Shown: positions 14,452-15,202 of the stretch, in pieces
How positions within the stretch are numbered: position 1 is the stretch's first letter
How the letters are laid out: every line of letters begins with the position of its first letter
Assembly: GCA_016705065.1 (NCBI GenBank)
Contig: JADIYY010000002.1
Coordinates: forward strand, 149,545-213,544
Length of the DNA: 64,000 nucleotides
Origin: Candidatus Aalborgiella aggregata
Lineage (GTDB): Bacteria > Pseudomonadota > Gammaproteobacteria > Burkholderiales > Burkholderiaceae_C
Direction of reading: 5' to 3'
Position numbers and translations under genes: made by a program
The notes under the pieces: generated by a model
The model's input: the letters and a program-made list of their open reading frames with translations, nothing else
Database searches by the model: none
What the model was told of the DNA's origin: nothing

Positions 14452-15202
14452 AACCGCCGGCCGGCCCCCCAAACCCGCCCCCACACTGCGCCACCACAAA
14501 AAAAATAAGTTGGCCGAAAAAAAAAAACAACCCCGCGGGGGGGGGGGGGGGCGGTCGGTGGGGGCGGGCGGGGGGGGGGAGGCGTGGGCGCGGCCCGGGG
14601 GGGGGACGCAAAGACAACACGGCGCGCGGGGGGGGGGGGGGGGGTGGGTTTCCCCCCCCCCGCCTGCACGGGCGGTGTGTGGGGGGGGGGGGGGGGGGGG
14701 GGGGGGGGGGTGTTCGCGCGGGGCGAGGCGGGGAGGGGAGAAAAGAAAAAGAAGGGGCCACCACCCCCCCCCACCCCCCCCCCCCACGTTGTGGGGGGGG
14801 GGGGGGGGGAGCCGGCCCGCACTTCATGGGACGCACCCCCCCCGCGCGCGGGGCCGCCCCCGGCCCGGCACCCCAAAAAGGGGGGGGGCGGAGGGGCCGC
14901 GCGGGGGCGCGAAGGCCCCCACCCGCGTGGCCCCCTGTGGTTGGCGCCTCCAGCAGGGGGGGGGGGGGGGGCGGGCGGGGAACGGCGGCCCACCGAAAGA
15001 CACGGGGAAGAGGGGCAAGAAAAAGGGGGGGGAAAAAGGGGGGGGGGGCGGGGGGGGGGGGGGGGGGGGGGGGGGGGGGGGGGGGGGGGGGGGGGGGGGG
15101 GGGGGGGGGGGGGGGGGGGGGGGGGGGGGGGGGGGGGGGGGGGGGGGGGGGGGGAGGGGGGAGGGAGGGGGGGGGGGGGGGGGGGGGGGGGGGGGGGGGG
15201 GG
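14452..15202. repeat. Extreme low-complexity G-rich tract (poly-G with sporadic C/A); non-coding, probably artefactual
   Basis: I counted uninterrupted G runs at 15050-15154 (105 nt) and 15167-15202 (36 nt). The tract fills the convergent glnD/def spacer. Composition is unlike the flanking DNA. Confidence 0.9.

What the first reader, a model, noticed from the sequence alone, without database searches (positions are those of the whole stretch)
14452..15202. ~750-bp near-homopolymeric G tract between the convergent glnD and def genes
Native-looking sequence stops about 20 nt after the glnD stop codon and resumes about 27 nt before the def stop. In between, the plus strand is almost entirely G with scattered C and A. 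It includes an uninterrupted run of 105 G that I counted (15050-15154) and another of 36 G. Homopolymers of that length are not known to be stably replicated in bacterial chromosomes. Poly-G is also the classic no-signal artefact of two-colour Illumina chemistry and of failed gap filling. The tract spawns six overlapping poly-Pro, poly-Gly and poly-Arg 'ORFs' on both strands. Artefact is my leading explanation. If the tract is real, it would be an extraordinary G-quadruplex or slippage locus.
Basis: partly seen in the sequence, partly recalled or inferred. Interest (0 to 1): 0.6.

Follow-up and report, generated by a model that had tools for sequence, protein, structure and literature searches.

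The report
Garbled consensus over a toxin-antitoxin cassette
The 750-base G-rich stretch between glnD and def is not real DNA: it is a blurred, mis-polished copy of an ordinary BrnT/BrnA toxin-antitoxin gene pair that eight independent assemblies of the same species show intact at this spot, so it is a data-quality problem.

Summary

- **What belongs there.** Eight independent metagenome assemblies encode the identical def protein. All hold a clean 641-bp spacer here, with a sigma-70 promoter, brnT (90 aa) and brnA (98 aa).
- **Flanks.** The window matches them for 23 nt after glnD and 25 nt before def, and at about 99.8% over 2 kb on each side.
- **The tract is a degraded copy.** It is collinear with the real cassette (z = 13.8). 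G and C are kept, A and T are turned into G or C, and about 180 G are inserted.
- **Not unique.** The second tract (23262-24246) is a garbled DUF6713 gene (z = 11.9). Five more homopolymer-rich tracts lie elsewhere in the genome; the three examined sit at strain-variable loci.
- **Source.** The genome matches MAG AalE_18-Q3-R2-46_MAXAC.018. It was built with Nanopore R9.4.1, Canu, Racon, Medaka twice, then Racon with HiSeq X reads. This pipeline type is documented to create homopolymer inserts of roughly correct size.

Two-colour poly-G and gap filling do not fit. Interest is low.

The parts
11837..14431 (+). glnD, [protein-PII] uridylyltransferase; intact left neighbour
   Evidence: NCBIfam NF002837, 1385.8 bits. 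The 2 kb up to its stop is 99.75% identical to the clean assembly L106.
14432..14454 (+). Native start of the spacer, 23 nt (ATACCGAATCTGATTGTGGTAAC)
   Evidence: Identical to the same 23 nt in eight independent assemblies. Single copy in the genome.
14455..15204 (.). Garbled consensus (750 bp). A degraded copy of the promoter-brnT-brnA cassette, with A/T turned into G/C and about 180 extra G, including G105 and G36.
   Evidence: Collinear with the real cassette: score 280, against 120 for the reversed target and 110 +/- 12 for block shuffles, z = 13.8. Directional substitution matrix.
14499..14763 (+). Approximate footprint of brnT (toxin, 90 aa in clean assemblies). No intact ORF remains here.
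   Evidence: Coordinates mapped through the global alignment. Pfam PF04365 BrnT_toxin, E = 6.5e-21, on the clean copy L106.
14743..15209 (+). Approximate footprint of brnA (antitoxin, 98 aa in clean assemblies), overlapping brnT by 20 nt in the real sequence. No intact ORF remains here.
   Evidence: Coordinates mapped through the alignment. Pfam PF14384 BrnA_antitoxin, E = 1.4e-21, on L106.
15205..15229 (+). Native end of the spacer, 25 nt (CTTGATGTGCATACAAAGCAATAGC)
   Evidence: Identical in eight independent assemblies.
15230..15766 (-). def, peptide deformylase; intact right neighbour
   Evidence: NCBIfam NF001159, 166.1 bits. The exact protein is indexed in 276 blocks of the public collection. 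The 2 kb from the def stop codon onward (def and part of ligA) is 99.85% identical to L106.
23262..24246 (.). Second tract of the same kind, between smc and dapC. A garbled copy of a cassette holding a 128-aa DUF6713 gene.
   Evidence: The real spacer is 1034 bp in L115 and L118, against 1046 bp here. Collinear: score 387, against 113 reversed, z = 11.9. Same A/T to G/C pattern. Pfam PF20460, E = 7.3e-32.

Best explanation
The tract is a consensus or polishing artefact in a Nanopore-based metagenome-assembled genome. The organism really carries a 641-bp spacer between glnD and def. That spacer holds a sigma-70 promoter (TTGACA, 17 nt, TACAAT), brnT (an RNase-type toxin) and brnA (its antitoxin).

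During consensus building this strain-variable cassette was progressively rewritten. G and C were kept, A and T became G or C, and homopolymer runs were inflated. The result is an insert of roughly the right size (798 bp against 641 bp) with absurd composition.

**Shown:**
- the true sequence at this site;
- the collinearity of the tract with it;
- the directional substitution pattern;
- the recurrence of such tracts at other strain-variable loci in this genome;
- the identity of the MAG and its pipeline.

**Inferred (about 60% sure of the step):** the damage arose in the Racon/Medaka rounds. At a site where co-existing strains differ by an insertion or deletion, few reads support the assembled allele and many reads span it with a large gap. 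Each round then makes the sequence less mappable. The final Illumina Racon round, run with --include-unpolished, could no longer repair it.
For: 1; eight independent assemblies with the identical 178-aa def hold the same clean 641-bp spacer. These are L105, L106, L108 and L110-L114, mostly short-read sewage and wastewater metagenomes, plus one 1.78-Mb contig of a later MAG. The window shares its first 23 and last 25 nt, and its 2-kb flanks are 99.75-99.85% identical.
2; the two ORFs of the clean copy are BrnT_toxin (E = 6.5e-21) and BrnA_antitoxin (E = 1.4e-21).
3; the tract aligns collinearly with the real cassette (z = 13.8). 136 of 146 G and 94 of 126 C are kept. A goes to G or C 83 times and T goes to G or C 101 times. 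G or C almost never goes to A or T. 180 G are inserted.
4; a sibling MAG of the same dereplication cluster from another plant (L107, JADJZC, Lyne_18-Q3-R50-59_MAXAC.016) has a different junk sequence at the same locus, also collinear with brnTA (z = 16.9). The junk is therefore not inherited DNA.
5; six further homopolymer-rich tracts lie in this genome (one in the window, five elsewhere). Of the five elsewhere, two short ones were only read, not compared with other assemblies, and a third (T4) was compared with one assembly only. The three tracts resolved this way lie at strain-variable loci.
   - T2 is a garbled DUF6713 cassette, absent from G002 and L116.
   - T3 is a mildly garbled 221-aa ORF (z = 26.5).
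   - T5 sits exactly at the insertion point of a 2.76-kb ABC-transporter cassette that is present in L119 and L125 and absent from L120.
6; the genome matches AalE_18-Q3-R2-46_MAXAC.018 (JADIYY) on three exact numbers: 9 contigs, 2,759,370 bp and longest contig 1,142,453 bp. The table lists Nanopore coverage 24.7x, Illumina coverage 13.4x, strain heterogeneity 92.86 and polymorphic-site rate 3.1%.
7; the pipeline was Guppy 2.2.3 flip-flop, Canu, Racon (Nanopore reads), Medaka 0.6.5 twice, then Racon with HiSeq X reads.
8. (PMC7500977, Fig. [quoted passage not shown]
Against: - Lack of read support for the tract is inferred, not shown.
- The step that did the damage (Canu consensus, Racon, Medaka or Illumina Racon) is not identified.
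- The documented precedent shows A/T homopolymers, whereas this tract is G/C-biased.
- The same cassette is garbled in two MAGs from two plants. That could point to a locus-specific property other than strain mixture.
Confidence: 0.94

Rival explanations
1. One reading: no-signal poly-G reads of two-colour Illumina chemistry, or a failed gap-filling step, were stitched in between two contig ends.
For: In other genomes of the order, G or C runs of 30 or more mostly sit at contig ends. One locus (G033:C21, L021) has the same junk texture on both sides of a 10-N scaffold gap. Such artefacts therefore do exist in public assemblies.
Against: The matched MAG's paper reports HiSeq X reads, which are four-colour chemistry by my own knowledge, and describes no scaffolding or gap filling. 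The tract is collinear with the real cassette and is not unrelated noise. Other tracts in the same genome are rich in A and T runs as well (T3).
Confidence: 0.03
2. Systematic Nanopore read-out failure. The cassette DNA carries a dense base modification, or another local property, that R9.4.1 flip-flop basecalling cannot read. Every read would then be poor there and the consensus collapses.
For: The same brnTA cassette is garbled in two MAGs from two different plants. The erosion hits A and T selectively.
Against: T5 is junk at an empty insertion site, where there is no cassette to be modified. The garbled loci share strain variability and no common sequence. A later long-read MAG (L110, a 1.78-Mb contig) reads the cassette cleanly. 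Toxin-antitoxin cassettes are typical presence/absence islets, which explains the recurrence without invoking modification.
Confidence: 0.03
3. The tract is genuine DNA: a locally hypermutated or expanded G-rich element, such as a G-quadruplex or slippage locus.
For: Only that it stands in a deposited assembly and respects gene boundaries.
Against: - Flanks are about 99.8% identical to eight assemblies with a clean cassette.
- The sibling MAG has a different junk sequence at the same site.
- Six more homopolymer-rich tracts lie in this one assembly, and the four compared with other assemblies are missing or read cleanly there.
- The second tract overwrites the dapC promoter and ribosome-binding site.
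- By my own knowledge, no bacterial chromosome is known to maintain a 105-nt homopolymer.
Confidence: 0.005

Closest known systems
Polishing-induced aberrant inserts in Nanopore assemblies (Canu + Racon + Medaka). Source: Gigascience 2020;9:giaa099 (PMC7500977), Fig. 6.
   Same: Same tool chain. Homopolymer stretches appear without coherent read support. The insert has roughly the right size but aberrant composition: 798 against 641 bp, 1046 against 1034 bp and 930 against 974 bp here.
   Different: The precedent is a fungal isolate and its junk consists of A/T homopolymers. Here the genome is a metagenomic population genome, the bias is towards G/C, and the sites coincide with strain-level insertion/deletion polymorphisms. 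Read support could not be inspected here.
Poly-G (or poly-C) tails at contig ends from low-signal Illumina reads
   Same: Long G or C runs that are not real DNA. They were seen in 13 of 400 other genomes of the order, mostly at contig ends.
   Different: This tract is internal to a 666-kb contig, is collinear with a real cassette, and comes from a pipeline with four-colour Illumina reads and no gap filling.
BrnT/BrnA type II toxin-antitoxin system (Pfam PF04365 and PF14384); this is what really lies at the site
   Same: In eight clean assemblies the site holds a promoter, brnT (90 aa) and brnA (98 aa) overlapping by 20 nt. This is the usual toxin-first BrnTA layout.
   Different: In the window itself neither ORF is readable. 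Function was not tested.

Membership tests
Polishing-induced aberrant insert (Canu/Racon/Medaka) | The assembly was produced by long-read assembly followed by Racon and Medaka polishing. | tested here: met
   The genome matches AalE_18-Q3-R2-46_MAXAC.018 on contig number, total length and longest contig. Pipeline is given.
Polishing-induced aberrant insert (Canu/Racon/Medaka) | The insert has roughly the correct size but homopolymer-dominated composition. | tested here: met
   798 against 641 bp, 1046 against 1034 bp, and 930 against 974 bp. There are 19 runs of 8 or more bases in the tract.
Polishing-induced aberrant insert (Canu/Racon/Medaka) | Independent assemblies of the same organism show ordinary sequence at the site. 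| tested here: met
   Eight assemblies hold a clean brnTA cassette between identical flanks.
Polishing-induced aberrant insert (Canu/Racon/Medaka) | The raw reads do not support the deposited sequence. | not testable with these tools
Two-colour Illumina poly-G artefact or failed gap fill | Two-colour platform reads, or a gap-closing step, were used in the assembly. | tested here: not met
   The paper reports HiSeq X reads and no gap filling. That HiSeq X is four-colour is my own knowledge.
Two-colour Illumina poly-G artefact or failed gap fill | The junk is unrelated to the true local sequence. | tested here: not met
   The tract is collinear with the real cassette, z = 13.8.
Phase-variable homopolymer or G-quadruplex locus (real DNA) | The tract, of varying length, is present in relatives or other isolates of the species. 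| tested here: not met
   It is absent from 11 same-genus genomes, and from the nine clean places of the ten shown by the identical-def look-up; the tenth is the sibling MAG with different junk.
BrnT/BrnA toxin-antitoxin pair (underlying real locus) | Adjacent small ORFs match PF04365 and PF14384. | tested here: met
   This is met for the clean copy L106. It is not met in the window, where the ORFs are destroyed by the artefact.

The most novel reading that the evidence does not exclude
The garbling is not a random polishing accident. It would report a real local property of the DNA, for example dense modification of A/T positions across small accessory cassettes such as brnTA. That property would defeat R9.4.1 basecalling in two different treatment plants, so junk tracts in long-read MAGs would mark modified islets.
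Probability: 0.03. Interest if true: 0.5.

Novelty: not a real feature. Interest (0 to 1): 0.05.

Why it matters
The tract has no biological significance. It matters as a data-quality flag. This MAG is a species-representative genome in public databases and holds at least seven homopolymer-rich tracts.

The four tracts compared in detail with other assemblies hide or distort real accessory sequence:
- a BrnTA toxin-antitoxin pair;
- a DUF6713 gene;
- a 221-aa ORF;
- the junction of an ABC-transporter cassette.

The tracts also spawn bogus poly-Gly, poly-Pro and poly-Arg ORFs, which can enter protein databases. All the tracts that could be resolved coincide with strain-variable loci. A simple filter for dense homopolymer runs would therefore flag mis-polished accessory islets in long-read MAGs of this generation.

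Tried and rejected
- **Homopolymer stretching.** I run-length-compressed the tracts to test whether they are simply stretched real sequence. The compressed strings are themselves low-complexity (CGCG, ACAC, GAGA), so plain stutter is not the answer.
- **Mobile-element ends.** I tested whether the 22- to 27-nt native flanks are ends of a multi-copy mobile element. They are single copy.
- **The ~60-bp dispersed repeat.** I looked for the family (GCTATAAATTTAATAGC...) at tract borders. It adjoins T3 and T7 but not this tract.
- **Short spacer hypothesis.** I considered that only a short spacer belongs here, as in 11 same-genus genomes (8-72 nt between the two stop codons). The same-species assemblies show a 641-bp cassette, so this was rejected.
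- **Wider family comparison.** The glnD-def interval varies from 3 to 2318 bp and holds various small genes in other genera. That was not informative for this species.
- **Literature.** A search for poly-G assembly artefacts gave nothing specific, and a search on Medaka, Racon and low coverage gave nothing direct. The MAG paper itself does not mention such artefacts.

Full report
**1. The observation**

Between the stop of glnD (11837-14431, +) and the stop of def (15230-15766, -) lies a 798-bp spacer. About 750 bp of it consists of homopolymer runs. Both genes were confirmed by NCBIfam.

Window 14452-15202 holds G 442, C 176, A 103 and T 30. It includes G105 at 15050-15154 and G36 at 15167-15202. 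It is not 'almost entirely G': the left half has C runs of 10 and 12 and an A run of 11. Seven ORFs of 60 aa or more overlap it.

Outside this tract and a second one, the longest homopolymer in the window is 8. The longest in 80 homologous loci of the family is 11. Only 13 of 400 other genomes of the order contain any G or C run of 30 or more. Of the nine such loci I read, seven lie within about 130 nt of a contig end and one (G033:C21) flanks a 10-N scaffold gap with the same texture. Long G or C runs in this order therefore already carry the mark of assembly junk.

**2. The tract is not unique**

A second tract lies at 23262-24246 between smc and dapC. The whole genome has 9 contigs and 2,759,370 bp, and the window is C2:149545-213544. 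It holds five more homopolymer-rich tracts:

| Label | Place | Character |
|---|---|---|
| T3 | C1, about 450.3-451.0 kb | runs of all four bases |
| T4 | C1, 1026.5-1027.2 kb | runs of all four bases, mostly G and C |
| T5 | C1, 1029.9-1030.1 kb | pure G/C |
| T6 | C2, about 612.0 kb | short |
| T7 | C1, about 737.8 kb | short |

T6 and T7 were only read, not compared with other assemblies.

**3. Relatives**

In all 11 same-genus genomes glnD and def are convergent neighbours, with only 8-72 nt between their stop codons. In the closest one (G002, GlnD 99.6% identical) the spacer is 24 nt. Its sequence does not resemble the window's native-looking flanks.

For the second tract, G002 has an ordinary 138-bp dapC upstream region where the window has about 985 bp of junk running to within 10 nt of the dapC ATG.

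**4. The decisive result**

I looked up the exact 178-aa def protein in public assemblies. Ten places were returned.

- **Eight clean copies.** L105, L106, L108 and L110-L114 come from ENA sewage and wastewater metagenomes, plus one 1.78-Mb NCBI MAG contig. All hold the same clean 641-bp spacer between glnD and def. It contains a consensus sigma-70 promoter (TTGACA, 17 nt, TACAAT), a 90-aa ORF and an overlapping 98-aa ORF. Pfam assigns these to BrnT_toxin (PF04365, E = 6.5e-21) and BrnA_antitoxin (PF14384, E = 1.4e-21).
- **Matching flanks.** The window's spacer is identical to these assemblies for its first 23 nt (14432-14454) and last 25 nt (15205-15229). Its 2-kb flanks are 99.75% and 99.85% identical.
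- **One empty site.** L109 has the 24-nt empty-site allele seen in G002. The cassette is therefore a presence/absence polymorphism within the species.

**5. The tract is a degraded copy of the cassette**

A global alignment of the garbled interior with the real cassette scores 280. The reversed target scores 120 and block shuffles score 110 +/- 12, giving z = 13.8. Landmarks such as ACGCAAAGA, GTTCGC and AACGGC survive in order.

The substitution matrix is strongly directional:

| Real base | Fate in the tract |
|---|---|
| G (146) | 136 kept |
| C (126) | 94 kept |
| A | becomes G or C 83 times |
| T | becomes G or C 101 times |
| G or C | almost never becomes A or T |
| (inserted) | about 180 extra G |

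The tenth place, L107 (GCA_016719475.1), has a different junk sequence at the same locus, also collinear with brnTA (z = 16.9). The two junk versions are therefore independent corruptions and not inherited DNA.

**6. The other tracts behave the same way**

- **Tract 2.** It aligns collinearly (z = 11.9, same A/T to G/C pattern) with a 1034-bp spacer that, in L115 and L118, holds a 128-aa DUF6713 gene (PF20460, E = 7.3e-32). That gene is absent from G002 and L116.
- **T3.** It is a mildly blurred copy of a 221-aa ORF downstream of hsp33 (z = 26.5). It shows an earlier stage of the same process, in which neighbouring bases are smoothed into runs.
- **T5.** It is 254 bp of pure G/C. It sits exactly where other strains (L119, L125) carry a 2.76-kb ABC-transporter cassette between ppsA and ppsR, and where L120 has a direct junction.

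All three of these tracts lie at strain-variable insertion/deletion sites, as does the brnTA tract itself. T4 was compared with one assembly only: L120 has 27 bp where G000 has about 730 bp, and no assembly showing a real sequence there was found.

**7. Provenance**

Supplementary Data 3 of Singleton et al. (Nat Commun 2021, PMC8012365) lists AalE_18-Q3-R2-46_MAXAC.018 (JADIYY000000000). It has 9 contigs, 2,759,370 bp and a longest contig of 1,142,453 bp. All three numbers equal those of this genome.

| Property | Value |
|---|---|
| Illumina coverage | 13.4x |
| Nanopore coverage | 24.7x |
| CheckM strain heterogeneity | 92.86 |
| Polymorphic-site rate | 3.1% (study average 2%) |

L107 is Lyne_18-Q3-R50-59_MAXAC.016, from the same dereplication cluster and another treatment plant.

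The pipeline was:
1. R9.4.1 reads basecalled with Guppy 2.2.3 flip-flop;
2. Canu assembly;
3. Racon with Nanopore reads (--include-unpolished);
4. two rounds of Medaka 0.6.5;
5. one Racon round with Illumina HiSeq X reads.

No gap filling is described, and HiSeq X uses four-colour chemistry (my own knowledge).

**8. Closest known**

[quoted passage not shown] The size relation holds here: 798 against 641 bp, 1046 against 1034 bp and 930 against 974 bp.

**9. Inferred mechanism**

At an insertion/deletion-polymorphic site in a mixed population, the assembled allele is supported by a minority of reads and most reads span it with a large gap. The consensus network then emits poorly supported runs. 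After each round fewer reads map, and the last short-read round leaves the region as it is.

This step is an inference, at about 60%. That the tract is an artefact overlying brnTA is about 94-95%.

**10. Limits**

Lack of read support and the guilty step are therefore not shown directly.

A small residual possibility, about 3%, is a locus-specific read-out failure such as dense modification. This is suggested by the same cassette being garbled in two plants. T5, which is junk at an empty site, and the clean long-read copy L110 argue against it.

**11. Verdict**

'Artefact' is correct, but the proposed cause is not. What really lies there is an ordinary BrnT/BrnA toxin-antitoxin cassette. This is not a real feature, and its interest is low except as a quality flag for this and similar long-read MAGs.

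Noticed in passing
window 23262-24246: A second junk tract lies between smc and dapC. It is a garbled copy of a ~1-kb spacer holding a DUF6713 gene (128 aa). It overwrites the dapC upstream region to within about 10 nt of the ATG. The cassette is absent from G002 and L116.
   Followed up: yes
genome C1:450330-450990; C1:1026480-1027165; C1:1029888-1030143; C2:612026-612097; C1:737765-737812: Five more homopolymer-rich tracts lie elsewhere in the genome. T3 is a blurred 221-aa ORF next to hsp33. T5 sits at the insertion point of a 2.76-kb ABC-transporter cassette between ppsA and ppsR. T4 lies between rpsF and ppsA, where L120 has 27 bp. The two short ones were not analysed.
   Followed up: partly
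L107 (GCA_016719475.1, JADJZC010000008.1), between def and glnD: A sibling MAG from another treatment plant carries a different 770-bp junk sequence over the same brnTA cassette. L116 (GCA_016720475.1) shows a C-run-rich, partly blurred smc-dapC spacer.
   Followed up: partly
L021 (G033:C21, about 9369-9590): An unrelated genome of the order has the same junk texture (C33, A14, A15, C21 runs) on both sides of a 10-N scaffold gap. This is a different route to similar-looking junk.
   Followed up: no
window 5325-5385, 9649-9720, 11814-11880, 55212, 57392; genome C1:450985 and C1:737722: A dispersed ~60-bp repeat family has a GCTATAAATTTAATAGC palindrome followed by TAGGCAATYAATACGCCGGCTA. Copies lie inside and between genes. 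Two copies adjoin junk tracts T3 and T7.
   Followed up: no
L025-L104 (family-wide glnD loci): Across the family the glnD-def interval ranges from 3 to 2318 bp. In other genera it holds different small genes, up to about 265 aa and unrelated to one another. It looks like a recurrent landing site for small accessory genes.
   Followed up: partly
L002 (G002:C1:80197-83730): ligA of the closest relative G002 matches in two overlapping pieces (residues 218-624 and 612-717). This suggests a frameshift, probably a long-read indel error. Earlier first-reader notes list several homopolymer frameshifts in this window (comEC, hemD, a sensor kinase) that may have the same technical origin.
   Followed up: no
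window 17963-18394: A 143-aa acetyltransferase gene downstream of ligA is present here and in the clean same-species assemblies. It is missing from the corresponding place in G002. This is another small strain- or species-variable insert, and it is read cleanly.
   Followed up: no
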